Below are positions 296 through 33,949 of a stretch of 33,949 nt of DNA, in pieces (within the stretch, counting starts at the first letter, position 1; each line of letters begins with the position of its first letter). The notes under the pieces were generated by a model. That model saw only the letters and a list, made by a program, of their open reading frames with translations, made no database searches and was not told where the DNA came from. Made by a program: the position numbers and the translations under genes. The stretch is from a virus: IMG/VR virus record IMGVR_UViG_3300046748_000066. The stretch is one strand, 5' to 3'.

Positions 296-1043
296 TTCTT
301 AGCAAACTCCTTTTCTGTCCTAGCATTCTTACGTCTTGTGGACGTGTAACTTCTCGTTGAAGCTTGTTATATGCCTGATTACGAGGATCAATACCTGTGT
401 AGTATGGTTTGATAGTCTGTTTATCAGAAGTATCTAAAACAAAGCTTCCAGAGCCTTTAATCAGGTTTTTGTTATCTGTAGCTACATTCTTCTCAACAAT
501 AACTGATTGAGGTTTAGCATCTGGCATTTCATTGACCATCTGTGTTGGAGCTACATTGTTCTTAACATTGTCTTGATTATTGGTAGTCTGTGCCATTGTT
601 TCTGCTTCACCAGAAGTGCTACGTCCAAATAACATACTGCCACCGCCATATATAGCTGTGCCATAAAACGTCTTCTTAGCCATTACTTTGTCAGTTATAT
701 TATCTTTTAGTTGGTTCTGTCTAGATTTGGATCTATCAGTAACGGTAACCGTATCAAATTGTTTTTTGCCTTTGACAACCTTATGCTTGCCTGTTTTAGT
801 TAATTTTGGTTTCTTTATGTTTTTGGTAACTACATTGACAGGATTAATACTAGATACTCTACCTTTGCTAAACATTTCTGTTGTAGTAGCACCAATTCTT
901 TTTAATGCTTTAGTACCATAGGTTAATAAGCTAGTAGGTCCACCATAGATGTGTTGATGAAATAATTTTTTACTTTGGGGAAATGCTCTGCCAACGTATG
1001 GCGCTGCTTTTGATAAGCCTTCAAGAACAACCTTAGCTACCAT
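288..1043 (-). CDS. Lys-rich basic protein of unknown function (251 aa)
   Basis: Long ORF in the operon frame, starting in a TAATG overlap with the upstream gene. K/T/N/G-rich low-complexity composition. No motif I recognise. Confidence 0.7.
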   Translation of the reverse strand: MVAKVVLEGLSKAAPYVGRAFPQSKKLFHQHIYGGPTSLLTYGTKALKRIGATTTEMFSKGRVSSINPVNVVTKNIKKPKLTKTGKHKVVKGKKQFDTVTVTDRSKSRQNQLKDNITDKVMAKKTFYGTAIYGGGSMLFGRSTSGEAETMAQTTNNQDNVKNNVAPTQMVNEMPDAKPQSVIVEKNVATDNKNLIKGSGSFVLDTSDKQTIKPYYTGIDPRNQAYNKLQREVTRPQDVRMLGQKRSLLRNA

Positions 1044-1465
1044 TAACCTCTACCTCTAGGATAAAGCATATTGATAAGCTTTTGTCTTGCTCTTGATGAT
1101 CCAACGCCCTCAGATTCTTTAAAGGTTTCTGATGAGTTACTAGCAAACTTACCTTTTGTAGGTCTGATATTATACTTCTGATAAGTCTTAAGCACGGCTC
1201 TGTCATAGTCTGTAAGCGTTCTGTCTTCAATAAAGTTTCCAGAATCAATCATATCCTGTGTCAGCATAGATCGTTTAACCTTAGTTTGTCCTGTACGTAC
1301 TGATTGGAATGGAGCAGTCGTGTCTTCAAACTTGGTAGTCCTAGCAGTTTCTCTAGTCATACCACCACCTTTCTTAGGTGTCTTCTTTTTGTAGGATGCA
1401 ATTAGTTTGTTTCTAGCTGATGAGCTAGCTGTTGGTAATGCACCGTATCCTTGTCCCTTTGGCAT
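1043..1465 (-). CDS. Basic protein of unknown function (140 aa)
   Basis: ORF with ATG preceded by gtagaggtacatt (GAGG-type RBS). K/R/T-rich. First gene after the 211-bp structured intergenic region. Confidence 0.65.
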   Translation of the reverse strand: MPKGQGYGALPTASSSARNKLIASYKKKTPKKGGGMTRETARTTKFEDTTAPFQSVRTGQTKVKRSMLTQDMIDSGNFIEDRTLTDYDRAVLKTYQKYNIRPTKGKFASNSSETFKESEGVGSSRARQKLINMLYPRGRG

Positions 1466-7821: not shown

Positions 7822-8043
7822 ATGACACCGATACAACTAGGCGTACTCAAATACATTGAACAGTATATAGATACTACGGGTATAAGCCCGACCTATCGTG
7901 AGATAAAGGAGGGGTGTAACCTCTCCGCTATCTCTCATGCTCACAAGATTGTTGATGTCTTGATTAAGAATGCACATCTTGATATGGATCCAGCTGGTCA
8001 TAGAAAGATAAGGCGTAAGGCAGACAGCGACAAACATGAGTAG
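7822..8043 (+). CDS. Stand-alone LexA-type winged-helix DNA-binding domain protein (73 aa, no S24 peptidase domain)
   Basis: MTPIQLGVLKYIEQYIDTTGISPTYREIKEGCNLSAISHAHKIVDVLIKNAHL aligns by eye with the LexA N-terminus (LTxRQxEVFxxIxxxIxxTGxPPTxxEIAxxLGxxSxxAAxxHLxxLxxKG). The ORF ends soon after the domain. Confidence 0.6.
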   Translation: MTPIQLGVLKYIEQYIDTTGISPTYREIKEGCNLSAISHAHKIVDVLIKNAHLDMDPAGHRKIRRKADSDKHE

Positions 8044-8335
8044 CAACAAGAAAGAAAAAAAAATAATGAACTACATGGCACAAGTATATGGCTGTATAGT
8101 TTGCAAAAGAGAGGGACATGGATTTACAGAAGCAAGCATTCATCACCTGCGAACAGGCATGGGAATGGGACAGCGAAGTAAATTATTCATCCCACTTTGC
8201 TGGAATCACCATCAACATCCTGAGCATGGTATACATGGTGGTACCAAATCATGGCAGAAGAAACATGGTACTGAGCTAGAACTATTAGAATATTATAATC
8301 TTACTAGCGAAGAGGGTTATCAGATCGAGCCTTAA
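8036..8335 (+). CDS. Ref-like (RecA-dependent nuclease family) HNH endonuclease
   Basis: GCIVCK...ASIHHLRTGMGMGQRSKLFIPLCWNHHQ...GIHGG fits the C-x2-C ... HH-x-R ... G-x-G-x-K/R ... IPLC-x2-HH pattern of P1 Ref/DUF968-type nucleases. The start is uncertain (8036, 8066 or 8075). Confidence 0.55.
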   Translation: MSSNKKEKKIMNYMAQVYGCIVCKREGHGFTEASIHHLRTGMGMGQRSKLFIPLCWNHHQHPEHGIHGGTKSWQKKHGTELELLEYYNLTSEEGYQIEP

Positions 8336-8528
8336 TCTCTTCTACTTTAGCTTTGAGTACAGCTATCTCTGCCTTATTAATAGCTATGTCTTGTTCCAGA
8401 GGTTTAATATCTGGAGCAGACTTAGCTTCTAACACATCAATCCTCTGTATTAATTGACCTTGAAATACAAAGAGAGAGCCAATAGTTATCACTAAACCTA
8501 CAATCCCTGCTATCGTTTTAATATCCAC
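8304..8528 (-). CDS. Small N-terminal-TM plus coiled-coil protein (74 aa), i-spanin-like topology
   Basis: GTG start 5 nt after AAGGAGG. IAGIVGLVITIGSLFVF is a TM segment and the remainder is heptad-like (IAINKAEIAVLKAKVEEIKA). It is the last gene of the minus arm, and its 3' end overlaps the 3' end of the plus arm by 32 nt. Confidence 0.6.
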   Translation of the reverse strand: MDIKTIAGIVGLVITIGSLFVFQGQLIQRIDVLEAKSAPDIKPLEQDIAINKAEIAVLKAKVEEIKARSDNPLR

Positions 8529-9987
8529 GTATCCTCCTTAGATGTTCTTCAGCCCTTATCCTATTGTCAGTAGCTTCTTGAACTTTCTTTTGATATTGCT
8601 GAACAGGATCTTGATTTCCATACGTAACTTCAGCATATATATTTCTAGTATCAATATAGTTTCTGGTCTCATTGTAATTACCACCGTCTATGTTTAATTG
8701 ATTTCTAAATATATTTTGATTTACATTACTATAAGTGTCAACAGATGTTGAACTCGCTATAGCTTTAGCTACCAACAGATTAACTTGTTCTAGCTTTTGG
8801 GTAACGCTACCTGTAGTTTGTTCAACTTGTCTAGTTATATCTGCTATCGAAACATCGATACTATCTTGTTCCACAATTGCAACATCTTCATCTTCAGTGA
8901 CAGTGGTTGCACTTTCTGATGTGGCTTCCACTCCTGTGTCTTCGCTTGATTCAATTGCGACTGGACTTTCTTCACCTCCAGATTCTTCTCTGACCTCTGC
9001 GACTTCTGTGATTTCTTCAGGCTCAGGGTTTCGTTCGACAGGTCTAGCTTCTTCGGTACCTCCTGCAACTTCTTCGATTCCTGATTCTTCTCTGACTTCA
9101 ACAACTTCTTCTTCAACTTCGATCTCTGTTGCGACTTCCTCGATGATCTCTTGATTACCATAACTTATCTCCAATTCTTCAGGTGGTTCTAATGTAAATA
9201 CATTGATGACACCTGTGTTTATTTCTTCTATTGCTACCTCTTGAATGTAAACCTCACTAAACGTTTCAATAATTAATTCAGGTTCTTCAAAGGGTATAAA
9301 TTCTTCTACTATAAATTCTTCGTATATAAATAATTCTTCTGGGCTAACCATAGTTAATACTTCTTCTATCTCTTCAAATGCTGTAGCTATAATTTCTGTC
9401 TCAGCTACGCTTAATACTGTTGGATCATATGTCATTGTGACCGATATATTATCTACATTGGGACCACCAAGATTGTCTGGTGCATTAGCATCTTCACCAC
9501 TTAAATATAGATTGCCCACCCTACTGCCCGTCCCTGTATATGTAAGACTATCTGAATAATTAACACCATCGATACCTGTTGTATTACTGCGTGTTTGCGT
9601 AGTTGTAGCAAGTACATTGCCAAGTTCATCTTTAATCTGTATGCGTACAGTAAAGCTATCAGCACCGCCTCTGTTAGGCGCCCATCCACCTACACCACCC
9701 TCACCATTCTGCCACTCTGTTGTGCTGTTGAGAGTAATACCATTGTTTAACATAGGTTGAGTAATAGTATCTGAATATAAATTAAAATCTTGTTCAATAA
9801 ATCCTATGTCTCCAAACTCAAAGTCGTGTCCTCCGGGACAACAATCACCTATAACTTCTGCATCACCTGATGTAGTCCAACCTGTTGATCCATTGTCAAA
9901 CGTACCATTGATAATTAGGTTGCCAGTTACATCTGCATATGCTAGATTAAGAGAGAGCAATACAACAACAAAGCTACTTAACTTCAT
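8518..9987 (-). CDS. Secreted hyper-acidic protein: Sec signal peptide, jelly-roll/CBM-like N-domain, ~200-aa Glu-rich region, C-terminal domain
   Basis: MKLSSFVVVLLSLNLAYA/DVT is a signal peptide. NLIINGTFDNGSTGWT is typical of CBM4/9-like or galactose-binding-like domains. The central region is dominated by E/V/I, with the repeat VREESGIEEV / VREESGGEES. I prefer ATG 9987 to GTG 9990. Confidence 0.7.
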   Translation of the reverse strand: MKLSSFVVVLLSLNLAYADVTGNLIINGTFDNGSTGWTTSGDAEVIGDCCPGGHDFEFGDIGFIEQDFNLYSDTITQPMLNNGITLNSTTEWQNGEGGVGGWAPNRGGADSFTVRIQIKDELGNVLATTTQTRSNTTGIDGVNYSDSLTYTGTGSRVGNLYLSGEDANAPDNLGGPNVDNISVTMTYDPTVLSVAETEIIATAFEEIEEVLTMVSPEELFIYEEFIVEEFIPFEEPELIIETFSEVYIQEVAIEEINTGVINVFTLEPPEELEISYGNQEIIEEVATEIEVEEEVVEVREESGIEEVAGGTEEARPVERNPEPEEITEVAEVREESGGEESPVAIESSEDTGVEATSESATTVTEDEDVAIVEQDSIDVSIADITRQVEQTTGSVTQKLEQVNLLVAKAIASSTSVDTYSNVNQNIFRNQLNIDGGNYNETRNYIDTRNIYAEVTYGNQDPVQQYQKKVQEATDNRIRAEEHLRRIRGY

Positions 9988-10597
9988 CACTAATCATCCC
10001 AGAGGGAATAGGTTTACCATTCCATTCATCAGCTTCAGGCTGATAAAATCCACCAATCTCTGTCCATCTAGCTTTAGCTTTTTCACCAATCAACCCATCA
10101 ATTGGGCAAGGCGTCCCTGCATCCCACATTGATTGCCATACATTTTTATCTTGGCACATCAAAGATATTGCTGCTACTTTCATACCAAGCTTGGCTAGTA
10201 CTGAGGTAGCTTTTCTACGTTCACACTCATCATCTCTCATATAGCTACCAAATGAGCCTGAGAAGCCGATTACGGTTACTCCTGCTGCAAGTGGTATAAC
10301 ACAGCTGTCTTGTCCATAAACGCTCATACTGGGCGCTGAGGAGCCATTGACTGCTGTCTCTTGATTTGTACTATTGTTAGTTGTATTGGATGTAGTAGAG
10401 TTTGAGCTGGATCCTGACTGATAGGTAGTGCTGGATTCGTACCCACCAGTAATAGCAGTATTACTGCCTGCGTTATTGGATTGGGTATTGGTTGTAGCGC
10501 CTGAGCTAGTAACATCAGCTATACTAGATTCTATACTTAACAATGCAATGAGTATTGCAAGTACAACAAGTGCTGGCTTTAGCTTCGACACTTCCAT
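9974..10597 (-). CDS. Secreted protein: signal peptide, S/T/N-rich linker, Cys-containing C-terminal domain (207 aa)
   Basis: MEVSKLKPALVVLAILIALLSIESSIA/DVT is a signal peptide. A ~70-aa S/T/N-rich tract follows, then a domain with five Cys. No catalytic motif recognised. Confidence 0.65.
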   Translation of the reverse strand: MEVSKLKPALVVLAILIALLSIESSIADVTSSGATTNTQSNNAGSNTAITGGYESSTTYQSGSSSNSTTSNTTNNSTNQETAVNGSSAPSMSVYGQDSCVIPLAAGVTVIGFSGSFGSYMRDDECERRKATSVLAKLGMKVAAISLMCQDKNVWQSMWDAGTPCPIDGLIGEKAKARWTEIGGFYQPEADEWNGKPIPSGMISDEVK

Positions 10598-10827
10598 TTT
10601 CTCAACGCCAATGCTTTACGCGTTGGTCTTCCTTTACTATCTTTCATTGGTCCCTTAACTCCTGACATTCTGGCACAAAAACTTTTTCGCCTAGCTGCAG
10701 CTTTAGATCCTTTAGGTGCTTTGCCTGTAACAGGAGGTTTAAGTTTACTTCCATCCTTACGTGCAAAATGCGCTCTACCTGCTGCATTCAATCCACCACT
10801 AGGGTTTTGATATTTCTTAGCTACCAT
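10579..10827 (-). CDS. Small basic protein (82 aa), GGLNAAGR...RRKSFCARM family
   Basis: TAATG-coupled start. NPSGGLNAAGRAHFARKDGSKLKPPVTG...AARRKSFCARMSG resembles a small-protein family I recall from marine phages and giant viruses (annotated only as a DUF). Confidence 0.65.
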   Translation of the reverse strand: MVAKKYQNPSGGLNAAGRAHFARKDGSKLKPPVTGKAPKGSKAAARRKSFCARMSGVKGPMKDSKGRPTRKALALRKWKCRS

Positions 10828-11069
10828 TATGTTTTAGCATATCCAGGTTTGCCCTTAGATGAATTATCTTTTGATTGTTTACGTTTGACTGCTGCTCTCT
10901 TTTGAGAACTAGACATCTTACTTGCTTTAGCTGATGGCACACACTTAGGATACTTGCCACGTTTCTCACCTTTACTTCTGCCACAAGGAGGAAAGCTACC
11001 ATCAGAGCGAGGATTAGCTATGTCTACCCAACGTTCGCCTACCCATGCTTTGAGACCTTTCTTAGCCAT
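10827..11069 (-). CDS. Small basic protein (80 aa), ERWVDI...PCGRS...KYPKCVP family
   Basis: TAATG-coupled at both ends. WVGERWVDIANPRSDGSFPPCGRSKGEKRGKYPKCVPSAKASKMS is a recurrent small viral motif of unknown function. Confidence 0.65.
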   Translation of the reverse strand: MAKKGLKAWVGERWVDIANPRSDGSFPPCGRSKGEKRGKYPKCVPSAKASKMSSSQKRAAVKRKQSKDNSSKGKPGYAKT

Positions 11070-11203
11070 TATTTTTTCTTTTTACCACCGGGCTTGATTC
11101 TGCCAGAGCAAACGCCAGAGGCATACATGTTTGCGTATGCAGATGGATACTTCTTGAACTTTCTTTTAGCTGCCGCTTTACCTTTTGCACATAACTTTGC
11201 CAT
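11069..11203 (-). CDS. Tiny basic protein, 44 aa (below the ORF-track cutoff), KYPSAYANxYASxxC motif
   Basis: Hand translation: MAKLCAKGKAAAKRKFKKYPSAYANMYASGVCSGRIKPGGKKKK. AAGGAGA lies 5 nt upstream of the ATG. Its stop overlaps the next ATG (TAATG), and its start is 1 nt after the upstream stop. Confidence 0.6.
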   Translation of the reverse strand: MAKLCAKGKAAAKRKFKKYPSAYANMYASGVCSGRIKPGGKKKK

Positions 11204-11204
11204 A

Positions 11205-11639
11205 TTATCTCCTTACTAATGAACCACCAAAATACAATCCTATTATGGAACTTACCACATGGGTATCTAATGGTGTGATTACTAATCCTGACATCGGTTT
11301 CCATTGCGTCATGTCTACGTCTGATGCAAATATCCACCAACCCTCTTGTATTGTTTCTGTATATCCTACGTAAATAGGCATTGATGGATCTATAAATGGT
11401 GCAAGTTTTGGTATAACCAGTATAGATACTACAGCTATCAGGGCTATCCAACGTCTGGTATTCTTGGTAAATGAATCAGTTACCTCTCTAGCTTTGTCTA
11501 CTTGTTCTGCTGCAAATTCAGCTCGTTGCATAAACATCTTTTGTTTATCAGCTTCAGCTTGAGCTTTTTGTGCCATGATAGATAGGACACCACCTAGTAC
11601 TGTACTAGCTAACATGCTTAATAATTCCATAGGTATCAT
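11205..11639 (-). CDS. Holin-like membrane protein (144 aa, about 3 hydrophobic segments)
   Basis: I prefer ATG 11639 (an ATGA overlap with the upstream small ORF) to the track start at 11687. It has an N-terminal TM (LLSMLASTVLGGVLSIMA), an amphipathic AQKAQAEADKQKMF helix, a TM at WIALIAVVSILVIP, and a C-terminal VVSSIIGLYFGGSLVRR. The layout recalls 3-TM holins of the GTA-holin type. This is from memory only. Confidence 0.4.
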   Translation of the reverse strand: MIPMELLSMLASTVLGGVLSIMAQKAQAEADKQKMFMQRAEFAAEQVDKAREVTDSFTKNTRRWIALIAVVSILVIPKLAPFIDPSMPIYVGYTETIQEGWWIFASDVDMTQWKPMSGLVITPLDTHVVSSIIGLYFGGSLVRR

Positions 11640-11800
11640 GAGTTGTAGAAATAGCCTCCTACTATTGCAGCTATACCACCTAGCCATGCTATAAATGTAA
11701 TAGCACCTTTGCCTTTGTTGATAGCTTCTTCGAGCTTAGTAATCCTGTCTTCTAAAGATACAATCTTATCTAGTATCTGTGAGTTAGTTACTGTTCTCAT
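11636..11800 (-). CDS. Small coiled-coil plus C-terminal-TM protein, 54 aa (below the ORF-track cutoff)
   Basis: Hand translation: MRTVTNSQILDKIVSLEDRITKLEEAINKGKGAITFIAWLGGIAAIVGGYFYNS. ATGA overlaps at both ends (with the desaturase B stop and the holin-like start). Confidence 0.55.
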   Translation of the reverse strand: MRTVTNSQILDKIVSLEDRITKLEEAINKGKGAITFIAWLGGIAAIVGGYFYNS

Positions 11801-12543
11801 TTAAAAATCCTTTCTATAAAAAATGCAGGAGGATCTAACTCCCACCATTTGTGTCCATGTCTATAGTCTTTTGACTTAGTATGATGATAGTTATGCCAAC
11901 CCTCACCCCAGCTAATCAATGATGTCAATGGACTGTTTACTGCTGTGCAATGTGGTTTAGATTCTACTACTTTATATCCAAAATGTTTACTATGTGGTAT
12001 GACACCAAAAGCTCCAGCCACTATATAAATACAGGCACATGGAAATGAAAATAAAAATAGTCCTAACATAGGATTAATTGTGTACAAAATTAACACATAT
12101 GTAAATAGTAAAGCCCAATAATTCCTAGTGATAAACATATAATCTTTGTCTTTGAGTATGTCTTTGACCATGACTTTGGGTACAGTTATATGGTCATATA
12201 ATGTAAGCCATGCTCTTAGATAACCTATTCTTTCAGGTGATTGGTTGTCATCTGTAGGATGTCCAGAGTATCTATGATGATATCTGTGCTGTGCTGTCCA
12301 TGATAATGGACTACCAAATGCTGATATAACTGTAAGATATTTGAGTATCTTATCTTTAATTGGTGTAGTTTCAAATGATCTATGGCTCATATATCTATGT
12401 ATAGCTATGTTAGTTGAGAATATATTTACAAATGCCCATCCAATTATCCCATAGATTATATACTCAGGATAAGTAACACATGCCCAGACAGATATTAATA
12501 CATTAGTAAGTGCTAGTAGTTGTATCTTGATAGCGTGATTCAT
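11797..12543 (-). CDS. Membrane fatty-acid desaturase, Delta9 (stearoyl-CoA desaturase-like) type, paralogue B (248 aa)
   Basis: His boxes are in canonical order: HRYMSHRSF, QHRYHHRYSG and SWGEGWHNYHHT (compare HRLWSHRSY, HRxHH and GEGxHNYHHxFP). Hydrophobic segments flank them. ATG 12543 forms an ATGA overlap with paralogue A. Confidence 0.8.
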   Translation of the reverse strand: MNHAIKIQLLALTNVLISVWACVTYPEYIIYGIIGWAFVNIFSTNIAIHRYMSHRSFETTPIKDKILKYLTVISAFGSPLSWTAQHRYHHRYSGHPTDDNQSPERIGYLRAWLTLYDHITVPKVMVKDILKDKDYMFITRNYWALLFTYVLILYTINPMLGLFLFSFPCACIYIVAGAFGVIPHSKHFGYKVVESKPHCTAVNSPLTSLISWGEGWHNYHHTKSKDYRHGHKWWELDPPAFFIERIFK

Positions 12544-13223
12544 GCCCAACCTAATTTTTTAACTAACCAAACATATGGATCAAACCAACAATGTGTAAGC
12601 TGTGGTTTGATATGATGTTGTTTGTGAAATGATTCAGAAAATGCAAATAGGTACATGTAAGGTACGTCTCTTACTTTATCTGTATGACACATAATACCTG
12701 TTACTAACATTACCCAGAACGTAGTCATGGCTACCGCAGTAGCCCATGTAAGAAACCATGCAGTTGGCAGGACTAAGAAAAGAATAGCATTCAACATGTA
12801 AACCAACATTGTTTCATATTTAGTTAAAAATAATTGCCAGTCATTTCTTAGCCTATCTGTTGCCAGACTAATCTTTGTAGGTTGTTCATGTGTCCTAAAT
12901 ATAATGTAGTACCATGTTTTATATTTAGGACTATGAGGATCTTTGTCTGTGTCTGAATGTTTATGATGGTTTCTATGCCATGCACTATACGATATTGGTG
13001 TACCTATCATAGCTGTTAGTGATACTACACTCATTATGTTTTGAAACCATACAGGTGGATTCCAGAGATTATGTGTAGCCCATCTGTGTATAAACAAACT
13101 CATAGTAAATTCTAATAAAAAATAAAAGAGTATGTATGTGTATAGAAGTTGTAGCCAAGATAGTGCTACAAAAGAATATAAAGCTAATCCAAAGTAAACA
13201 ACATATAAAATGGTAAGTGGCAC
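12540..13223 (-). CDS. Membrane fatty-acid desaturase, Delta9 type, paralogue A (227 aa)
   Basis: His boxes are HRWATH, WHRNHHKHSDTDKDPHSP (near-canonical HRxHHxxSDTxxDPH) and FHKQHH. Two TM segments precede box 1. GTG start 1 nt after the upstream stop. Confidence 0.8.
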   Translation of the reverse strand: MPLTILYVVYFGLALYSFVALSWLQLLYTYILFYFLLEFTMSLFIHRWATHNLWNPPVWFQNIMSVVSLTAMIGTPISYSAWHRNHHKHSDTDKDPHSPKYKTWYYIIFRTHEQPTKISLATDRLRNDWQLFLTKYETMLVYMLNAILFLVLPTAWFLTWATAVAMTTFWVMLVTGIMCHTDKVRDVPYMYLFAFSESFHKQHHIKPQLTHCWFDPYVWLVKKLGWA

Positions 13224-13224
13224 A

Positions 13225-13719
13225 TTAGTACTCCCATGTCATAAGTTTTATGTTCTCATTTAAATCTTGTGTTGTAAGACTGCCCAGACATATTCCATCT
13301 GTTGTTGCTTGAGTAAAGTAAGTATCAATTCTGGAATCTTTAATACATTTCAATGCAAACTTACTACCACCTAATGATTGAATCCATGATTTGTTTGCCT
13401 CATGAAATGCAGATGTCCATGTCCACGACTTACTATTATTTATCTTGCCTACTAATGCATCATGCCAAGTATATGTATTGTTTTCATACATTCCATGTAC
13501 ATATAAACAAGGAACATCATCTTTAGAAACAATAACATTGTAACCAAAGTTGCTAGCGTTTATCGTAGTTACTATATGTTGTTTTAGTTCTGTATCTGAT
13601 TTGCTTAAATGTTCTGATGCAACTGTTCCAGATTTTATATCATCTAAACTATCTGCATATATCTGATTAAACGTATCGTCTATTGTAAATTCGTTCATTC
13701 TTGTAAAAGTATAAGACAT
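13225..13719 (-). CDS. Hypothetical protein (164 aa) between tail-fibre genes and desaturases
   Basis: Intact ORF with a TAATG-type junction to the upstream gene. No motif recognised. Confidence 0.65.
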   Translation of the reverse strand: MSYTFTRMNEFTIDDTFNQIYADSLDDIKSGTVASEHLSKSDTELKQHIVTTINASNFGYNVIVSKDDVPCLYVHGMYENNTYTWHDALVGKINNSKSWTWTSAFHEANKSWIQSLGGSKFALKCIKDSRIDTYFTQATTDGICLGSLTTQDLNENIKLMTWEY

Positions 13720-14291
13720 TATGTTTCTACTATTTTAAATCCTGTTGACGCACCAGTATTACCCATTATTGCAGCAGCAGACATAGTTGTATTTGGTGAA
13801 CCTGAAGCTGTACTAGTCCAATGAAAGAATTTAGCTCCTGTTATTCCATGTTGTGATAAACTAGCATCTGCTCTGTTAAACCTTGTTACGTTACCGTTAG
13901 TTCCATTTGTAATTTCAATAAATGTCCAAGCTGTATAAACTGTACTATTTTGTAAGTGAAATCTCGATATGGCCCCATCTACATAACACGCTTGTATTGA
14001 ATTAGATGAGTTAGCAATAGCTGTGCTACCAATACTTCCATAAAAACCAACACCACTACCAACTGTTACACCAACTTCAGTATTTTTGATACCACCAACA
14101 CCTACTGTTATGGTTGTATTAGCGTGTTCAGTACCAGAAGATGTTCCATAAAAATCGGCAGCTAATTGTATTTCACCACTAGCTGGTGCATTACCCTCGC
14201 CATGATATTCTGATAAAGAATGAGGTGCAGAGCCACCAAACTCTGTAGCTATCTCACTGAGTTTTATTTGACCACTACTTTGTAAAGCCAT
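13719..14291 (-). CDS. Tail-fibre-like / receptor-binding accessory protein (190 aa)
   Basis: The N-terminus SGQIKLSEIATEFGGSAPHSLSEYHG...ASGEIQLAADFYG is the ISxSDxxxEFGGSxPxSLSEYY...SGxIxxSDFYG motif recurrent in structural proteins of marine podoviruses. It follows the tail-fibre gene. Confidence 0.55.
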   Translation of the reverse strand: MALQSSGQIKLSEIATEFGGSAPHSLSEYHGEGNAPASGEIQLAADFYGTSSGTEHANTTITVGVGGIKNTEVGVTVGSGVGFYGSIGSTAIANSSNSIQACYVDGAISRFHLQNSTVYTAWTFIEITNGTNGNVTRFNRADASLSQHGITGAKFFHWTSTASGSPNTTMSAAAIMGNTGASTGFKIVET

Positions 14292-16364: not shown

Positions 16365-19300
16365 CTAATCTTCTAGTACTCCGTTATATACTTTTTTAAA
16401 TGCTCTGTCCCATACAAACCAATTATTGAGAGGAATCATACGTCTTATAGCGTCTCTTTGCTCTTTATCTCCTCCATCTTCAAAAGCATAATATATATCT
16501 AATAAGTTACTACCTGCTGCGCCTACAATTGGTCTAAATGCATCGTGGTCTTTTGGATCACCATAAGGATTATCCATACCAAACATTGGTCTTATACCAT
16601 ATTCTTGACCACTTACTGTTTCTAGCATACTTGGTAAATCACTTAATATTGCACCTACACCTGATTTTTCTACACCTGTAAGTATTTTTTCTTCAAATGG
16701 TTTTTGATACCAAAAGTCTGGTGACTTAAGAAAATCACCCCATATAGCAAAACCTACCATAGCAGAACTACCTTGTAATAAATATTGATCACGACCAGTA
16801 ACTCCAGACATAAGTAACTTTCTATTAGCAGCAATCATCCAAGAGTAGAATTGAAAAGGCAGAGCCATATAAGCATTCTGGAACTTACCTCCTCTATCTG
16901 TTCTAGTAAATCCAAAATATCTTCCTACTGGATTATCAAATGCATCTGCTACTTCATCATTATTAATTCTTACTACACCATACATCATATTTAATTTGTC
17001 GTTAGGTGATGGTGTAATAATTGTTCTTTCAACGTCAGCTTTTACAGCTGCTCTATATACAGATAAAGCTTTAGCACCACCCGGTCTATCTATCCAACGT
17101 CTAGCATTAGGTAAAAACGTACCATCCATTTGTTCGTATGGCATACGACCTATAAGCTTAGCCATCTGCTCATCTATACCATAAGATGCTAATCTAGTTT
17201 TACCAGCTTCATCTAATGATCCTTTGTTAAGTTTTATTACATCTTCTAAGAATCTATGTTGTGATACAAAAGTAGTCATCTGTTTCATTTTAATAGTCCA
17301 CGGGGTAAGCCCGTTCATCCAATACCAGATACCTTGAGTTTTCTGAGCTGGTTGATAAAAATACTTATTAAAAAATCCACCAGTAGCATTTTGTGGTCCC
17401 ATGTTTGCACCATAGTAACGTTCTGCTGCTGACATTTGCTGTGTTAACTCTATCAAAGGATTTATAAACTGAGCATCTTTTGCTATTTTTTGGTACAGTT
17501 TTGGATTTTTCATCATTGGTCGCCATGCTTGTGAGTACACTCTACCAAAACCATGCACCATAATTGGTCTACCCAAGTCAGCTTGAGCTGTAAATACTAC
17601 CTTACCCATAGATGCAAGAGATACAATGTTACGTATAAATCCAGCAGCCTGCTTATTCATATAGGCAGGATCTTGGGTATTAAAAGTTCCATATAATTTA
17701 TCTTTAGAATCTTGTATAGCATTTAAAACTTCATTCATTGCTGTAACGTCTTTTTTTGATTCTACTGTATTTAAAATTAACTCTCTTTGTAATCTGTATG
17801 TATGATTCATCATATGTCTATCACCAAATCTTTTGGTAATTTCTATAGCTGTAGTCATTCTATTTTTATATATTTTTAAAACATCAGACACATTTGTTTC
17901 TATAAATGGAATACCATCTGGTGACATGTTAATTGTTTTCATTAGTTCTTTGTTTTCTATATCTAGGTTTCTAGACATCAATCCTCTTACACCAGCTTTA
18001 GCTTGACCTTTTCCTATTGTTCCAAGTCCTAATATTCCATCAGTGTCCATAGATGCTGACTGATCTAGGATTCTTTCATGTGTAAAATCAACCATATCTT
18101 CTATTTGTTTAGCTGTTTTGCCACCATGTCTTGGATGTGTTTTGTAATAATTTCTTAATATATTTTTAAATGGTTCTTCATGTTTAAGTATTTCTTCTCT
18201 ATTCCAAAACCTACTATAATATTCTGCATTTAAATCTAAAGGTTTTATATCTTCATCTAAAAGTAATTTTTCTTGTTCTTTTAAAAATTTTAGATCATCG
18301 CCTAATGAATCTAATAACTTTTCTAGTTCATTTTTTTTTATTGGTGTTATGTTTGGGTTTCTTAAGTCTGCCTGTACTTGTCTTTTTATTTTTTCTTTTT
18401 CTTTTAACTGTCTTAATACAGTTCTTTGGTTAGCAAACATACCTAAATCATTGGCTTCTTCGCCTATTTCTTTAAAATACCTACGTGTTGCTAATGCTGA
18501 TTCTCTTATTGTTCTTGGTAATTTAGGATCATTTAATATTTTGTCATCCATTACAGCCCTAGATACTTCATGTTGAAATTCATTCCATGTGTTTTGTGGT
18601 CTATCTGGTAACTCTTCTTTTAGACCAAACATTTTATTTCGCATCTTAGCCATGTTAGTAGCCCAACTATGTTTAGTTTCTGCCAACCAGTCAGCTCCTT
18701 TATGTGTTGCTGCGGTTCTATTACCACCAAACATATACTTACTCTCTTTGCTACCTGTCCTATATTCAACATATTTTTCATTTAATGTGTTTAAGACTTT
18801 TTGTAATTCTGCTTCTCTAGTAGTTTGTACAGTTAAATGTACAGATGGGTTCATTCTTATACCTGCTTTATGACCACGTGCAACTATTCCAAAGTCACCA
18901 GTAATTTCAAATATATCTCTAGCAAGATAAGATGCAATAGCAGGATGTTTTTGAAACTTATGTACAACTTTACCTGTGTCAGTATATTTATCTAACCATG
19001 TTAAAAACTGTTTCATGACTGGTATTTCACCTACATCACTAACAAAACTGCCTTGTTGTTTCTTAGAATCTTTTACTACTGCTTTAGTTACTCTCTGGTC
19101 ATAAGCTTCTAATGATTCACCTTTTTTTCTTTTTTCTACCCATTGGTTTTTTTTCCATAATTCTTTTTTAATTTTAAAGTTTACGTATTGATCATAAGTT
19201 TTCATTAGCTTAGCAACGTTAGGAGATACGCCCGGAAGTTGTATGCCATCTTTTTTATATGCATTAAATTCTTGTTTTAATCTAACTTCATCAACAAGTA

Positions 19301-20252
19301 CTTTTGTTTTACCTTTATCTGTTTTTACAAATATGTTTGCCAATTCAACACCTCTTTTTCTATCTCTAGTATAGTTGCCTCTAGCATCATAGTATCTGCC
19401 GGTTCTACCTACATTAATATCTATTGTTAAGTCTTCTGTTAGTTTTATTTTATTGTCAAATCTTTGCGCTCTAATAACTAGACCATCAAACATACTTGGA
19501 TCACCACCCTCTGTTTCATACATAGCGTTGTGATATTTAGTTTCTAATTGTTCTGGTCCACCTTTGTCTATAATGTGTTTTTTGGCTATGGCTCTGTTTG
19601 CACTATTGACTACTCTAGGTGCTAACAATCCACTTAATACACCACCCAAAACAAATGATGTCCCAACATATGCTATTGATTCATCAGTAGTAGCAAGAGG
19701 GTTGTATGCTTGTCTTACAGGTTCTGTTGCACCTACTAGTACACCTGCCGCAGCACCACCTTTCAATGCTCTAGTTGCAAATGACATACCTCCAACAAAT
19801 GGTACAGGTATATAGTTTATAGGATCGAATAACCCAGCAATAAGTGCTGGACCAAATGTTCTATCTGGACTAGCTTCTAATCTTTCATATCTAGCTTTGT
19901 TTACATCTATTCTATGTTTAAGATAATCCATGTGTCCTTGATTACGGACTTCCATAAACTGTTCAGCATGTTCTTCATATCCCTCTATATGTTCTGCCTC
20001 GAAAGGATTAAAGTTTCTGTCAAAGGTTTCGTTATAATCACCTAAGTTTTGTGCATCACTATCTAGTAACTGACCTATCCATGTCAACATTACCTCATCA
20101 CCAATATCATCAATATATGATTGCGATCCTCTAGGTTTTATTTGACGACTAGCAAAATCACTAGGTGAGTAAATATCTTTAGTAAAGTCTAACTCTCTTA
20201 ATTGTTCTTGTGATTCGTCAAACTGAGATTTTTGTTCTTCTCTAATCGACAT
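16365..20252 (-). CDS. Large internal virion / DNA-ejection protein (1295 aa, T7 gp16-like by size and position)
   Basis: Position between the 749-aa protein and the tail fibre, and a size close to T7 gp16. A hydrophobic Gly/Ala-rich segment lies near residues 135-215. No enzymatic motif recognised. Confidence 0.6.
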   Translation of the reverse strand: MSIREEQKSQFDESQEQLRELDFTKDIYSPSDFASRQIKPRGSQSYIDDIGDEVMLTWIGQLLDSDAQNLGDYNETFDRNFNPFEAEHIEGYEEHAEQFMEVRNQGHMDYLKHRIDVNKARYERLEASPDRTFGPALIAGLFDPINYIPVPFVGGMSFATRALKGGAAAGVLVGATEPVRQAYNPLATTDESIAYVGTSFVLGGVLSGLLAPRVVNSANRAIAKKHIIDKGGPEQLETKYHNAMYETEGGDPSMFDGLVIRAQRFDNKIKLTEDLTIDINVGRTGRYYDARGNYTRDRKRGVELANIFVKTDKGKTKVLVDEVRLKQEFNAYKKDGIQLPGVSPNVAKLMKTYDQYVNFKIKKELWKKNQWVEKRKKGESLEAYDQRVTKAVVKDSKKQQGSFVSDVGEIPVMKQFLTWLDKYTDTGKVVHKFQKHPAIASYLARDIFEITGDFGIVARGHKAGIRMNPSVHLTVQTTREAELQKVLNTLNEKYVEYRTGSKESKYMFGGNRTAATHKGADWLAETKHSWATNMAKMRNKMFGLKEELPDRPQNTWNEFQHEVSRAVMDDKILNDPKLPRTIRESALATRRYFKEIGEEANDLGMFANQRTVLRQLKEKEKIKRQVQADLRNPNITPIKKNELEKLLDSLGDDLKFLKEQEKLLLDEDIKPLDLNAEYYSRFWNREEILKHEEPFKNILRNYYKTHPRHGGKTAKQIEDMVDFTHERILDQSASMDTDGILGLGTIGKGQAKAGVRGLMSRNLDIENKELMKTINMSPDGIPFIETNVSDVLKIYKNRMTTAIEITKRFGDRHMMNHTYRLQRELILNTVESKKDVTAMNEVLNAIQDSKDKLYGTFNTQDPAYMNKQAAGFIRNIVSLASMGKVVFTAQADLGRPIMVHGFGRVYSQAWRPMMKNPKLYQKIAKDAQFINPLIELTQQMSAAERYYGANMGPQNATGGFFNKYFYQPAQKTQGIWYWMNGLTPWTIKMKQMTTFVSQHRFLEDVIKLNKGSLDEAGKTRLASYGIDEQMAKLIGRMPYEQMDGTFLPNARRWIDRPGGAKALSVYRAAVKADVERTIITPSPNDKLNMMYGVVRINNDEVADAFDNPVGRYFGFTRTDRGGKFQNAYMALPFQFYSWMIAANRKLLMSGVTGRDQYLLQGSSAMVGFAIWGDFLKSPDFWYQKPFEEKILTGVEKSGVGAILSDLPSMLETVSGQEYGIRPMFGMDNPYGDPKDHDAFRPIVGAAGSNLLDIYYAFEDGGDKEQRDAIRRMIPLNNWFVWDRAFKKVYNGVLED

Positions 20253-33944: not shown

Positions 33945-33949
33945 TGTTG
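33823..33949. repeat. Terminal direct repeat, copy 2 (exact duplicate of 1..127)
   Basis: Same observation as for 1..127. Unique genome length is therefore 33,822 bp. Confidence 0.95.

What the first reader, a model, noticed from the sequence alone, without database searches (positions are those of the whole stretch)
8304..13719. Desaturases are translationally chained to a lysis-like membrane/secreted-protein cassette with no recognisable endolysin
From 13719 down to 10579, every gene junction on the minus strand is a start/stop overlap or a 1-nt gap. The junctions are at 13223/13225, ATGA at 12540..12543, ATGA at 11797..11800, ATGA at 11636..11639, a 1-nt gap at 11203/11205, TAATG at 11069 and TAATG at 10827. 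The next three junctions are 11-19-nt overlaps.
The resulting gene chain is:
1. unknown 164-aa protein
2. desaturase A
3. desaturase B
4. 54-aa coiled-coil/TM protein
5. holin-like 3-segment membrane protein
6. three tiny basic proteins
7. two Sec-signal proteins
8. a TM/coiled-coil protein of spanin-like topology
Reading all ORFs, I could not find a muramidase, transglycosylase, amidase or peptidase motif anywhere in the genome. Either the endolysin is one of the novel secreted proteins, or lysis works differently. Lipid remodelling is co-expressed with whatever breaks the envelope.
Basis: inference. Interest (0 to 1): 0.7.

Follow-up and report, generated by a model that had tools for sequence, protein, structure and literature searches.

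The report
Pelagiphage lysis-like module lacking an endolysin
A complete genome of an uncultured SAR11-type marine phage ends its late operon with two lipid-desaturase genes followed by a widespread, uncharacterised membrane/secreted-protein module that sits beside cell-wall-degrading enzymes in other phages, yet this genome encodes no recognisable enzyme of that kind.

Summary
All junction coordinates are correct. Both desaturases are real: PF00487 hits, all three His boxes, and DesB matches SCD1. Every membrane protein of the genome lies in 8304-13223. The window is a complete circular genome (127-nt terminal overlap), and a Pfam scan of all its ORFs finds no lysozyme, amidase, transglycosylase, peptidase or holin family. 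The same tool finds endolysins in related pelagiphages.

The interpretation needs splitting. The start/stop overlaps are not special: 15 of 21 other late-operon junctions are equally tight (p=0.14).

The region holds three independent units:
- 164aa-DesA-DesB is a mobile auxiliary-gene unit. Its desaturase pair also occurs as three- and four-gene arrays, including in T4-like phages far from lysis genes.
- 54-144-207-490-74 is a mobile five-gene module also found without desaturases. In other phages it lies directly after Hydrolase_2, Amidase_2 or GH24-like endolysins.
- The three basic genes are an optional insert; the DUF6321 one is common in cyanophages.

The nearest isolate, Hodr, has Hydrolase_2 plus a GTA holin at the same locus.

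Most likely this is a late lysis or envelope module whose wall-degrading component is unrecognised or absent. A functional link between the desaturases and lysis is not supported. Protein functions are inferred.

The parts
13225..13719 (-). 164-aa soluble protein of unknown function, the first gene of the desaturase unit
   Evidence: It has no Pfam, PHROG, NCBIfam or PDB-profile hit and no homologue in 50,697 phage records. In IMG/VR it is always followed by DesA: 38 of 38 new loci with room downstream, plus 49 loci from the DesB scan. The junction to DesA is +1 nt in 35 of 49 loci.
12540..13223 (-). DesA, a 227-aa membrane di-iron desaturase-like protein (SCD/delta-9 superfamily; GTG start)
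   Evidence: PF00487 E=9.3e-10. His boxes HRWATH, HRNHH and HKQHH. Two hydrophobic hairpins. Weak match to SCD1 4ymk, E=0.067. 74% identical to the first gene of the four-gene array in the T4-like locus L024.
11797..12543 (-). DesB, a 248-aa membrane desaturase-like protein, 23% identical to DesA
   Evidence: PF00487 E=7.9e-16. Matches mouse and human SCD1 (4ymk E=2.5e-11) over residues 18-244, including the His boxes. His boxes HRYMSH, HRYHH and HNYHH. NCBIfam DesA-family hit far below cutoff (49.7 vs 400 bits). 78 IMG/VR loci carry it. The closest cellular relative in GTDB species genomes is only 27% identical.
11636..11800 (-). 54-aa tail-anchored protein with an N-terminal coiled-coil-like helix and a C-terminal TM; first gene of the lysis-associated module
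   Evidence: Hydrophobic segment at 32-52. Homologous to the Hodr 74-aa protein that heads Hodr's canonical lysis cassette (E=7e-7) and to AP013540's 53-aa protein (47% identity). Same-architecture proteins precede or flank endolysins in HTVC033P, L158 and L165.
11205..11639 (-). 144-aa membrane protein (2 strong and 1 weak hydrophobic segment, C-terminal RR); candidate holin
   Evidence: Hydropathy and AF2 helices (low confidence). phrog_38283, function unknown. 814 clusters at 90% identity, none named. Homologues occur in 24 phage records, mainly pelagiphages and roseophages. Three or four genes downstream of Hydrolase_2 (L158) or a GH24-like lysozyme (L165). Occupies the T7 gp17.5 slot in T7-like phages. 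Not related to GTA_holin_3TM. No conserved His, so not a peptidase M15.
11069..11203 (-). 44-aa highly basic protein (net +14); optional insert
   Evidence: phrog_27331 E=2e-23, function unknown. Present in only 4 of 78 related loci.
10827..11069 (-). 80-aa highly basic protein (net +17); optional insert
   Evidence: phrog_23735 E=5e-21. DUF5872 hit below cutoff (19.1 vs 27.5 bits). Present in 4 of 78 loci.
10579..10827 (-). 82-aa DUF6321 protein (net +22)
   Evidence: PF19846 E=4e-28. Homologues in 422 phage records, mostly cyanophages. A basic-protein gene lies between 144 and 207 in 19 of 80 loci; its ~230-nt span points to the DUF6321 type. In Hodr it lies next to TerS instead.
9974..10597 (-). 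207-aa secreted protein: signal peptide, conserved S/T/N-rich region, then a ~95-aa core with four invariant Cys
   Evidence: Alignments A2, A5 and A9. 1087 clusters at 50% identity and more than 7000 at 90%, none with a Pfam family or a name. No PDB relative. The AF2 model is unusable (pLDDT 38). Followed by a 490-like gene in 73 of 80 loci.
8518..9987 (-). 489-aa secreted protein (490 from the GTG at 9990): signal peptide, CBM-like N-terminal domain, very acidic variable middle (net -74), conserved C-terminal helical region
   Evidence: Homologues are annotated as carbohydrate-binding domain proteins, and the AP013540 one gives a weak CBM_4_9 hit (E=0.009). Megablast hit to the HTVC033P homologue. 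No PDB relative.
8304..8528 (-). 74-aa protein: N-terminal TM, coiled-coil-like remainder, conserved C-terminal NPL(R) motif; last gene of the late operon
   Evidence: Follows the 490-like gene in 62 of 80 loci. 46% identical to the AP013540 protein annotated DUF2730, an annotation current Pfam does not reproduce. No Cys, and no lipobox ORF nearby.
13719..14291 (-). 190-aa protein with a conserved tail-fibre-type N-terminus and a variable C-terminus (context; upstream border of the desaturase unit)
   Evidence: Follows the S74-chaperone tail fibre. Relatives share the N-terminus but range from 164 to 449 aa.

Best explanation
The stretch is the distal end of the single late transcription unit of a complete, Hodr-like SAR11 podovirus. 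It consists of three separately mobile units packed head to tail.

1. 164aa-DesA-DesB is an auxiliary metabolic unit. DesA and DesB are two anciently diverged SCD/delta-9-type membrane desaturases that keep all iron-binding His boxes. They most likely introduce double bonds into host acyl chains during late infection. The 164-aa protein is an obligate but uncharacterised companion in podoviruses.

2. 54-144-207-490-74 is a lysis-associated envelope module.
- The tail-anchored 54-aa protein and the 2-3-TM 144-aa protein most likely act at the inner membrane in a holin or holin-partner role.
- The Sec-exported 207-aa (four-Cys) and 490-aa (CBM-like, polyacidic) proteins, with the inner-membrane-anchored coiled-coil 74-aa protein, most likely act in the periplasm or at the outer membrane. 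That would be a spanin-equivalent or another late envelope step.

3. Three small basic proteins are an optional insert unrelated to lysis.

The genome has lost, or never had, the canonical endolysin that sits directly upstream of this module in other phages and at the same locus in Hodr. Wall degradation must then come from an unrecognised activity in the genome or from host enzymes.

Shown: gene content, conservation, synteny, absence of known muralytic families.
Inferred: every protein function, the membrane topologies and the timing of expression.
For: Complete genome: 127-nt terminal overlap.

Backbone: portal, TerL and MCP are about 80% identical to Pelagibacter phage Hodr.

The same locus in Hodr carries, in order, a 74-aa CC+TM protein, a 123-aa TM+CC protein, a 75-aa signal-peptide protein, Hydrolase_2 (1.2e-21) and GTA_holin_3TM (8.5e-8). 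The window 54-aa protein is homologous to the first of these.

The five-gene module is shared at 39-61% identity with the otherwise unrelated T7-like phage AP013540, where it lies between the tail-fibre genes and TerL.

Synteny of 207 then 490 then 74 holds in 73 and 62 of 80 loci. 144 lies upstream in 31 of 80.

Canonical endolysins lie directly upstream of the module:
- Hydrolase_2 in L158 and L159;
- Amidase_2 in 5 loci and in HTVC033P gp50 (9e-20);
- a GH24-like lysozyme in L165 and L135.

All TM proteins of the genome are in 8304-13223.

Desaturase unit: His boxes are intact in 171 of 174 viral copies. Ordered arrays of 2, 3 or 4 paralogues occur in 46, 12 and 10 loci. DesB matches SCD1. 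The 164-aa gene is always followed by DesA.

No internal promoter or terminator signal above background.
Against: - No component matches any characterised holin, spanin or endolysin family.
- Both structure predictions failed (pLDDT 38 and 53), so no fold evidence exists.
- Only 9 of 80 module-bearing loci show an adjacent endolysin with my BLAST-level seeds. In many loci the module directly follows a large virion protein instead.
- In the myovirus Mosig the 207-490-74 trio lies near a primase gene.
- No lipoprotein partner exists for the 74-aa protein.
- Signal peptides and topology were judged by hydropathy and inspection only.
- The desaturases are short (227 and 248 aa) and far below NCBIfam equivalog cutoffs. 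No electron donor is encoded.
Confidence: 0.6

Rival explanations
1. A cryptic endolysin is present. One of the unknown proteins of the module (the 207-aa four-Cys protein, the 490-aa CBM-like protein, or the periplasmic C-terminal part of the 144-aa protein), or another unknown ORF, is a peptidoglycan-degrading enzyme of an unrecognised family. Lysis would then be canonical in logic.
For: - The genome is complete and lacks every known muralytic family, yet its nearest relative is a lytic isolate.
- 207 and 490 are exported to the compartment where peptidoglycan lies.
- 490 has a carbohydrate-binding-type domain.
- These families are huge and entirely unannotated.
- Skadi-type pelagiphages also carry the 144 homologue. 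Their only annotated lysis enzyme is that protein, mislabelled M15.
Against: - 144, 207 and 490 all co-occur with canonical endolysins in other phages: HTVC031P Pesticin-like, HTVC033P Amidase_2, L158 Hydrolase_2 and L165 GH24-like. None looks like a replacement.
- The conserved 207 core is only ~95 aa and carries no fused catalytic domain in any of the 150 best of 1087 representatives.
- No PDB or Pfam similarity.
Confidence: 0.3
2. The 207-490-74 trio is not a lysis function. It is a late-expressed envelope or surface system, for example superinfection exclusion, receptor masking, or cell-surface or aggregate modification. It merely shares the variable end of late operons with lysis genes.
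For: - The trio occurs in the T4-like Mosig next to a primase gene, away from any annotated lysis gene.
- It often follows large virion proteins rather than endolysins.
- It contains a CBM-like, extremely acidic secreted protein, unlike any known spanin.
- Pelagimyophages are already known to carry unexplained secreted or surface systems such as curli genes.
Against: - Repeated direct adjacency to three unrelated endolysin families and to holin-like TM proteins.
- It occupies the slot of Hodr's canonical lysis cassette and the T7 gp17.5-18.7 slot in T7-like phages.
- The 74-aa protein has i-spanin-like architecture with a conserved C-terminal motif.
Confidence: 0.25
3. The desaturases are functionally part of lysis. 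Late unsaturation of membrane lipids would prime or replace a step of envelope disruption, which would explain their coupling to the cassette and the missing endolysin.
For: - In all podovirus contexts the desaturase unit sits immediately upstream of the 54-aa gene, joined by an ATGA overlap in 26 of 39 loci.
- In L158 that exact slot holds the endolysin.
- None of the 78 desaturase-bearing loci shows an endolysin within about 8 kb with my seeds.
Against: - The same DesA and DesB orthologues (74-77% identity) lie in T4-like phages among replication and late-transcription genes with no 54 or 144 nearby.
- The module exists without desaturases and without an adjacent endolysin (L104) and in AP013540.
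- Experimentally characterised phage desaturases are interpreted as membrane-fluidity auxiliary genes, not lysis factors (PMC5776448).
- The junction tightness is genome-wide.
Confidence: 0.07

Closest known systems
Cyanophage-encoded delta-9 lipid desaturases (vFAD; Roitman et al. 2018, PMC5776448)
   Same: They are phage-borne membrane di-iron desaturases of the DesC/SCD superfamily with the three His boxes. They are regarded as auxiliary metabolic genes that change host membrane lipids.
   Different: - vFADs are single genes in cyanomyophages and clearly host-like. Here there are two to four diverged paralogues (about 23% identical) in a fixed order.
- The window proteins are shorter (227-259 aa).
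- No close cellular relative was found: 27% identity at best in GTDB species genomes.
- They occur in SAR11-type podoviruses and myoviruses and, in podoviruses, always come with a 164-aa partner.
- Activity and regiospecificity are untested.
- No cultured phage carries this array.
Canonical Gram-negative lysis cassettes (lambda S-R-Rz/Rz1; T7 gp17.5, gp3.5, gp18.5/18.7)
   Same: - Located at the end of the late genes, or between tail fibre and terminase in T7-like relatives.
- Contains small membrane proteins.
- Contains an inner-membrane-anchored periplasmic coiled-coil protein.
- Is adjacent to endolysin genes in relatives.
   Different: - No endolysin in this genome.
- No homology to any holin or spanin family.
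- No outer-membrane lipoprotein.
- Two large Sec-exported proteins have no counterpart in known cassettes.
Lysis cassette of the nearest isolate, Pelagibacter phage EXVC031P Hodr (OQ414635; all genes annotated hypothetical)
   Same: Same backbone, same locus at the convergent end of the late operon, and a homologous first gene (coiled coil plus C-terminal TM).
   Different: Hodr has Hydrolase_2 (SleB-type), GTA_holin_3TM, a 123-aa TM+CC protein and a 75-aa signal-peptide protein. It has no desaturases, 144, 207, 490 or 74.
Bacillus PBSX XhlA-XhlB-XlyA lysis genes (from my own knowledge; used as an architectural analogy only)
   Same: A small protein with an N-terminal coiled coil and a C-terminal membrane anchor (XhlA) precedes a holin. 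The 54-aa protein preceding the 144-aa membrane protein has that layout. The AP013540 homologue gives a non-significant XhlA hit (E=0.37).
   Different: No significant sequence similarity, a Gram-positive system, and an amidase that follows in PBSX but not here.
'Peptidase M15' lysis enzyme annotated in HTVC010P-type pelagiphages (Skadi, HTVC024P, HTVC203P; PMC10504331, bioRxiv 10.1101/672428)
   Same: The proteins carrying that label in these three records are homologues of the window's 144-aa protein (46-47% identity over the full length).
   Different: They are membrane proteins with no conserved His (so no H/D/H zinc site), and they give no Pfam M15 hit even at E<=1. The label is not supported for this family.

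Membership tests
Membrane fatty-acid desaturase (Pfam PF00487; SCD/DesC delta-9 superfamily) | Pfam score above the gathering threshold | tested here: met
   DesA scores 39.1 bits and DesB 59.0 bits against a cutoff of 29.7. DesB matches SCD1 4ymk at E=2.5e-11.
Membrane fatty-acid desaturase (Pfam PF00487; SCD/DesC delta-9 superfamily) | Three histidine boxes (HX4H, HX2HH, HX2HH) that bind the di-iron centre | tested here: met
   DesA has HRWATH, HRNHH and HKQHH. DesB has HRYMSH, HRYHH and HNYHH. The boxes are intact in 171 of 174 viral homologues; the 3 exceptions are short ORFs (162-165 aa) that begin at a contig end, so probably truncated.
Membrane fatty-acid desaturase (Pfam PF00487; SCD/DesC delta-9 superfamily) | Two hydrophobic hairpins (four TM helices) flanking the His boxes | tested here: met
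   Hydropathy peaks at about 1-45 and 137-179 in DesA and 4-25 and 144-183 in DesB. Kyte-Doolittle only.
Membrane fatty-acid desaturase (Pfam PF00487; SCD/DesC delta-9 superfamily) | Equivalog-level identity with a characterised enzyme (NCBIfam DesA family) | tested here: not met
   NF049918 gives 49.7 and 19.7 bits against a cutoff of 400.
Membrane fatty-acid desaturase (Pfam PF00487; SCD/DesC delta-9 superfamily) | Desaturase activity and regiospecificity | not testable with these tools
   Needs expression in ole1 yeast or E. coli fabA with GC-MS.
Holin | Small protein with at least one TM segment and a charged C-terminus | tested here: met
   The 144-aa protein has hydrophobic segments at 4-24, 62-86 and about 127-141 and ends in VRR. 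The 54-aa protein has a segment at 32-52.
Holin | Homology to a described holin family (e.g. GTA_holin_3TM) | tested here: not met
   No Pfam or PHROG holin hit. hhalign against the Hodr GTA holin gives probability 0.6%; against HTVC033P gp49 it gives 0.2%.
Holin | Gene next to an endolysin gene | tested here: inconclusive
   Not met in the window. In relatives the 144 homologue lies three or four genes downstream of the endolysin: L158/L159 have Hydrolase_2, 63aa, 47aa, then the 144-like gene; L165 has GH24-like, 71aa, 69aa, then the 144-like gene.
Holin | Forms lethal membrane lesions at a programmed time | not testable with these tools
   Requires inducible expression.
Two-component spanin (Rz/Rz1 type) | i-spanin: N-terminal TM plus periplasmic coiled coil | tested here: met
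   The 74-aa protein has a TM at 1-27 and a helical, charged remainder with a conserved C-terminal NPL(R) motif.
Two-component spanin (Rz/Rz1 type) | o-spanin: small outer-membrane lipoprotein with a lipobox, encoded embedded, overlapping or adjacent | tested here: not met
   No minus-strand ORF of at least 25 aa with a lipobox lies anywhere in the cassette. 207 and 490 have type-I signal-peptide-like cleavage sites, not a lipobox.
Endolysin (lysozyme, transglycosylase, amidase or peptidase families) | Match to any muralytic Pfam or PHROG family anywhere in the genome | tested here: not met
   Searches give 22 families, none muralytic. phrog_342 matches the 1295-aa protein only at profile positions 194-1041; I take the unmatched N-terminal ~190 positions to be the lytic-domain part, by analogy with T7 gp16. 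Positive controls with the same tool: Hodr Hydrolase_2, HTVC033P Amidase_2 and HTVC031P Pesticin.
Endolysin (lysozyme, transglycosylase, amidase or peptidase families) | Muralytic fold detectable by structure | tested here: inconclusive
   AF2 models of 207 and 144 have pLDDT 38 and 53, too poor for a fold search.
Peptidase M15 (label given to 144-aa homologues in Skadi, HTVC024P and HTVC203P) | Zn-binding His/Asp/His residues and a Pfam M15 match | tested here: not met
   No invariant His in alignment A1. No M15 hit at E<=1 for the Skadi, HTVC024P, L039 or window proteins.
DUF6321 (PF19846) | Pfam score above the gathering threshold | tested here: met
   The 82-aa protein scores 98.3 bits against a cutoff of 28.5.
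Cationic outer-membrane 'disruptin' (phiKT gp28 type; considered for the basic trio, from my own knowledge) | Small cationic protein encoded in the lysis cassette in place of a spanin | tested here: inconclusive
   Charges are +14, +17 and +22, and similar small basic genes sit in the Skadi, CRP-810 and AP013540 cassettes. However, DUF6321 occurs in 422 phage records, mostly T4-like cyanophages outside lysis loci, and the trio is present in only 4-5 of 78 related loci.

The most novel reading that the evidence does not exclude
The 54-144-207-490-74 module is a previously undescribed envelope-disruption system of some of the ocean's most abundant phages. Either it lyses SAR11-type cells without a classical muralytic enzyme, or its exported 207 and 490 proteins represent a new class of wall- or outer-membrane-attacking proteins: a three-part, lipoprotein-free spanin equivalent or a new endolysin fold.
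Probability: 0.2. Interest if true: 0.85.

Novelty: new variant of a known kind. Interest (0 to 1): 0.58.

Why it matters
Pelagiphages are among the most abundant viruses on Earth, and how they lyse SAR11 has not been worked out experimentally. Published annotations rest on a 'peptidase M15' label which, for the Skadi, HTVC024P and HTVC203P proteins, this analysis does not support.

The work defines three things:
- A concrete five-gene module whose parts have thousands of unannotated relatives. It sits in the lysis locus and beside three kinds of endolysin in other phages.
- A natural set of complete or near-complete genomes that carry the module with and without a canonical endolysin. This makes the question 'what breaks the wall?' testable by heterologous expression and complementation.
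- An ordered array of two to four diverged desaturase paralogues, plus a 164-aa partner, as a mobile auxiliary unit of SAR11-type phages. This extends phage lipid-remodelling genes beyond cyanophages.

Tried and rejected
- Structure route. AF2 on alignments of 48 and 46 close homologues gave pLDDT 38 (207-aa) and 53 (144-aa). No fold search was run because matches would be meaningless, and both prediction slots were used.
- Profile searches against PDB sequences for the 144, 207, 164 and 490 families, and single-sequence searches for the 749- and 1295-aa virion proteins, found nothing.
- Curlin idea. The S/T/N/Q/G-rich conserved region of 207 resembled curli subunits, and HTVC008M encodes curli genes. 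BLASTP against its CsgB-like protein shows no similarity. Dropped.
- Peptidase M15 for the 144-aa family: rejected.
- GTA_holin_3TM or HTVC033P gp49 relationship for 144: rejected.
- DUF2730 (the label on the AP013540 homologue of the 74-aa protein): not reproduced by current Pfam.
- Domain-fusion clue for 207. The 150 best of 1087 representatives are 72-367 aa. Their extensions are low-complexity N/T-rich or Lys-rich tails with no catalytic domain. A profile search returned more than 7000 unnamed proteins.
- Neighbour Pfam annotation of distant 207 homologues showed no endolysin within 6 kb.
- Embedded or adjacent lipoprotein (o-spanin): none.
- Host origin of the desaturases: no close cellular homologue in GTDB species genomes.
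- Incomplete-genome explanation: rejected by the terminal overlap.
- Internal promoters or terminators: none above shuffled background.
- Literature on DUF6321/DUF5872, on Hodr and on pelagiphage spanins or holins: nothing relevant.

Full report
**What the window is**

The first 127 nt are identical to the last 127 nt, so the contig is a complete circular or terminally redundant genome of 33,822 unique bases.

PHROGs and Pfam identify a T7-like-structured podovirus without an RNA polymerase. It has TerS, TerL, portal, scaffold, major capsid protein, tail tube A and B, internal virion proteins, and a tail fibre with an S74 chaperone. On the other strand it has a recombination and replication set: YqaJ exonuclease, SSB, DnaT-like and LexA-like proteins.

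The closest record among 50,697 phage genomes is Pelagibacter phage EXVC031P Hodr. Portal, TerL and MCP are about 80% identical at the protein level. No nucleotide-level relative exists among isolates.

All late genes lie on the minus strand as one run from TerS (2033), across the contig ends, down to 8304. There they converge on the early genes.

**Checking the observation**

The products are as described.
- There are two PF00487 desaturases.
- The 54-aa protein has a C-terminal hydrophobic segment.
- The 144-aa protein has two strong hydrophobic segments and one weaker one.
- The three small proteins have net charges +14, +17 and +22.
- Two proteins have signal-peptide-like N-termini. Both have cleavage-type sites followed by 'DVT'.
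- The 74-aa protein has an N-terminal hydrophobic segment and a helical, charged remainder.

All proteins of the genome with strong hydrophobic segments are in 8304-13223, apart from one segment in the 1295-aa virion protein.

The overlaps are conserved in relatives. DesA/DesB is ATGA in 64 of 74 loci, and DesB/54 in 26 of 39.

They are not special to this stretch, however. Once the small ORFs that fill the apparent gaps are included, 15 of the other 21 late-operon junctions are also overlaps or gaps of 2 nt or less. That compares with 10 of 10 here (Fisher p=0.14). The consensus scan shows no internal promoters or terminators above shuffled background. The 'chain' is therefore the ordinary compaction of one late transcription unit.

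**No recognisable endolysin**

Pfam and PHROGs on all predicted genes gave no muralytic family. Pfam on every ORF of at least 62 aa in six frames, plus the small genes, returned 22 families. None is a lysozyme, transglycosylase, amidase, muralytic peptidase or holin.

The gp16-like 1295-aa protein matches phrog_342 ('internal virion protein with endolysin domain') only over profile positions 194-1041. I take the unmatched first ~190 profile positions to be the lytic-domain part, by analogy with T7 gp16. It has no PDB relative.

tblastn with endolysins taken from relatives found nothing in the window, or in any of the 78 desaturase-bearing loci.

The same tools do detect endolysins in related phages:
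- Hodr Hydrolase_2 (1.2e-21) and GTA_holin_3TM (8.5e-8);
- HTVC033P Amidase_2 (9e-20);
- HTVC031P Pesticin-type lysozyme (1.5e-30).

The negative result is therefore meaningful at HMMER sensitivity. It does not extend to fold level, because both AF2 models were unusable.

**The desaturase unit**

DesB aligns with mammalian stearoyl-CoA desaturase 1 over nearly its whole length, including the metal-binding motifs (E=2.5e-11). DesA does so weakly.

Both keep HX4H, HX2HH and HX2HH. So do 171 of 174 homologous ORFs in 78 IMG/VR loci. The three exceptions are short ORFs (162-165 aa) that begin at a contig end and are probably truncated.

DesA and DesB are only 23% identical to each other. Each is 74-77% identical to the first and second genes of a four-gene tandem array in T4-like contigs. 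A third paralogue in T7-like contigs corresponds to the third gene of that array. Copy number per locus is two in 46 loci, three in 12 and four in 10.

In the T4-like contigs the array lies among gp46/47-like, sigma-factor-like and similar genes, with none of the cassette proteins nearby.

The 164-aa protein has no detectable relatives in Pfam, PHROGs, NCBIfam, PDB or any cultured phage. In IMG/VR it is always immediately followed by DesA: 38 of 38 loci with room downstream, plus 49 from the first scan. It therefore belongs with the desaturases.

No close cellular homologue exists among one genome per GTDB species (27% identity at best). No cultured phage has the array; Mosig has a single, distant desaturase-like gene in another context.

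Phage delta-9 desaturases are known from cyanomyophages, where activity was shown in yeast (PMC5776448). A stearoyl-CoA desaturase was also noted in freshwater pelagimyophages (PMC7029224).

**The lysis-associated module**

The five genes 54-144-207-490-74 recur together in the otherwise unrelated T7-like phage AP013540 (Votkovvirus). Identities are 47, 61, 42, 39 and 46% respectively. There the set lies between the tail-fibre-associated genes and TerL, which is the place of T7 gp17.5 to gp18.7, and there are no desaturases.

A scan centred on the 207-aa family returned more than 600 IMG/VR matches. Among the 80 kept:
- a 490-like gene follows in 73;
- a 74-like gene follows in 62;
- 144 lies upstream in 31;
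- a basic-protein gene lies between 144 and 207 in 19; its ~230-nt span points to the DUF6321 type.

Canonical endolysins of three unrelated families sit directly upstream of the module:
- Hydrolase_2 in L158 and L159, in the order endolysin, 63-aa CC+TM, 47-aa TM, 144-like, 207-like, 490-like, 74-like, then the end of the operon;
- Amidase_2 in five loci and in the isolate HTVC033P (gp51 CC+TM, gp50 amidase, gp49 TM, gp48, gp47, then gp46, gp45 and gp44);
- a GH24-like secreted lysozyme in L165 and L135.

Hodr has a canonical cassette at the same end of the same operon. Its first gene is homologous to the window's 54-aa protein.

This mosaic pattern is what lysis cassettes typically show. It is the main reason to read the module as lysis- or envelope-associated.

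The 74-like proteins share a C-terminal NPL(R/G/A) motif. The 207 family shares a ~95-aa core with four invariant cysteines, which fits a disulfide-bonded periplasmic protein. The 490 family has a CBM-like N-terminal domain, a variable polyacidic middle and a conserved C-terminal helical region.

None has a Pfam family, a name or a PDB relative. The 207 family alone has 1087 clusters at 50% identity and more than 7000 at 90%.

There is no lipoprotein gene, so this is not a canonical Rz/Rz1 spanin. The 144 family is related neither to GTA_holin_3TM nor to HTVC033P gp49.

**What the module is not**

144, 207 and 490 each co-occur with a canonical endolysin in some phage, so none is an obvious one-for-one endolysin replacement.

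The module also occurs in a Hodr-like contig (L104) with neither desaturases nor an upstream endolysin; tail-fibre-like genes precede it there. The desaturases therefore do not substitute for the enzyme either.

The basic trio is present in only 4-5 of 78 related loci. Its DUF6321 member is found in 422 phage records, mostly cyanophages. It is an insert of unknown function.

**A by-product: the 'peptidase M15' label**

The proteins labelled 'peptidase M15' in Pelagibacter phages Skadi, HTVC024P and HTVC203P are full-length homologues of the 144-aa membrane protein. For Skadi, that protein is cited as the phage's lysis enzyme (PMC10504331).

These proteins have no conserved histidine and give no M15 hit even at E<=1. 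At least for those records the label is unsupported. Apart from a lysozyme domain annotated in an internal virion protein, the lysis enzyme of these phages is as unknown as it is here.

**Most likely mechanism (inferred)**

All genes are probably made late from one transcript.
- The desaturases, with the 164-aa partner, insert into the inner membrane and modify host acyl chains.
- 54 and 144 accumulate in the inner membrane and probably provide the holin-type step.
- 207 and 490 are exported by Sec.
- 74 is anchored in the inner membrane with its coiled coil in the periplasm. Together these three probably act on the wall or outer-membrane side.

The wall-degrading activity is either hidden in an unrecognised protein or supplied otherwise. 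Confidence in this overall reading is about 0.6. Individual protein roles are much less certain.

**Verdict**

The suggested functional tie between lipid desaturation and lysis is not supported. The start/stop 'chaining' is a genome-wide property.

The desaturase array is a new member of a known kind of auxiliary gene. The five-gene module is a new, widespread and undescribed variant of a lysis or envelope cassette.

Noticed in passing
window 1-127 and 33823-33949: Exact 127-nt terminal overlap. The window is a complete circular or terminally redundant genome of 33,822 unique bases, and the late operon runs across the contig ends (the 59-aa ORF 116-295 overlaps the start of the 459-aa ORF by 7 nt).
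   Followed up: yes
L080:3504-3935 (Skadi-1 Skadi1_40), L081:3501-3932 (HTVC024P gp35), HTVC203P: Proteins annotated 'peptidase M15', cited for Skadi as the phage's lysis enzyme, are homologues of the window's 144-aa membrane protein. They have no conserved His and no Pfam M15 hit, so the annotation looks wrong for these records.
   Followed up: yes
window 1043-1465, 288-1043, 116-295, 32565-33944 (minus strand, between TerS and TerL): A run of very basic, low-complexity proteins: 140 aa (net +16), 251 aa (+25), 59 aa, and 459 aa (+51, with 86 K/R). They have no Pfam or PHROG hit and no counterpart in Hodr, which has different small genes there including its DUF6321 protein. Possibly packaged DNA-binding or ejection proteins.
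   Followed up: partly
L024:7312-10217 (IMGVR_UViG_3300048102_000197) and 9 similar loci: T4-like contigs carry four tandem, mutually diverged (20-31% identity) desaturase paralogues in a fixed order, all with intact His boxes. T7-like contigs (e.g. L039:7321-9466) carry three. This suggests a multi-enzyme lipid-modification pathway rather than a single fluidity gene.
   Followed up: partly
window 16365-20252 (1295-aa gp16-like protein): It matches phrog_342 ('internal virion protein with endolysin domain') only from profile position 194 onward, so the N-terminal ~190 profile positions are unmatched. By analogy with T7 gp16 I take these to be the lytic-domain part. No virion-associated wall hydrolase is recognisable either, whereas Skadi's 977-aa internal protein is annotated as lysozyme.
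   Followed up: partly
window 9974-10597 and 8518-9987: After the predicted signal-peptide cleavage, both secreted proteins start with the same residues, DVT (DVTSSG and DVTGN). The S/T/N-rich 'low-complexity' region of the 207-aa family (residues 28-95) is almost invariant across 48 homologues, which is unexpected for a mere linker.
   Followed up: no
window 8304-8335: The last late gene (74 aa, minus strand) and the last early gene (99-aa RecA-dependent nuclease / DUF968-like, plus strand, 8036-8335) converge and overlap by 32 nt at their 3' ends. No terminator-like hairpin was detected there.
   Followed up: partly
L082:3668-4090 (CRP-810 gp51 'lysozyme'), L090:22584-22892 (AP013540 'amidase'), L090:31276-31560 (AP013540 'lysozyme'): Several lysis-enzyme annotations in relatives look unreliable. 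CRP-810 gp51 is a TM plus coiled-coil protein with no Pfam support. The AP013540 'amidase' is a multi-TM protein. Its 94-aa 'lysozyme' is a partial Amidase_2 match (profile 34-109 of 131, E=4e-4).
   Followed up: partly
L080:4014-4163 (Skadi_39, 49 aa, +15), L082:4092-4343 (CRP-810 gp50, 83 aa, +21), L090:17965-18114 (49 aa, +9): Small, strongly cationic proteins recur inside or next to the lysis-like cassettes of several marine phages, as the basic trio does in the window. Whether this is more than coincidence (for example a disruptin-like role) is open.
   Followed up: partly
window 11825-11845 (minus strand): A hairpin followed by a T-run (terminator-like) lies inside the 3' end of DesB, about 25 nt before the 54-aa start codon. 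It is one of 3 such sites, against 4.3 expected by chance, so probably not meaningful.
   Followed up: no
L215:951-1622 (NCBI GCA_005809045.1 contig; also a 156-kb ENA contig): A phage-like contig carrying a distant 207-like gene also encodes a Bax inhibitor-1 / YccA-type membrane protein (PF01027) just upstream of the large virion protein.
   Followed up: no
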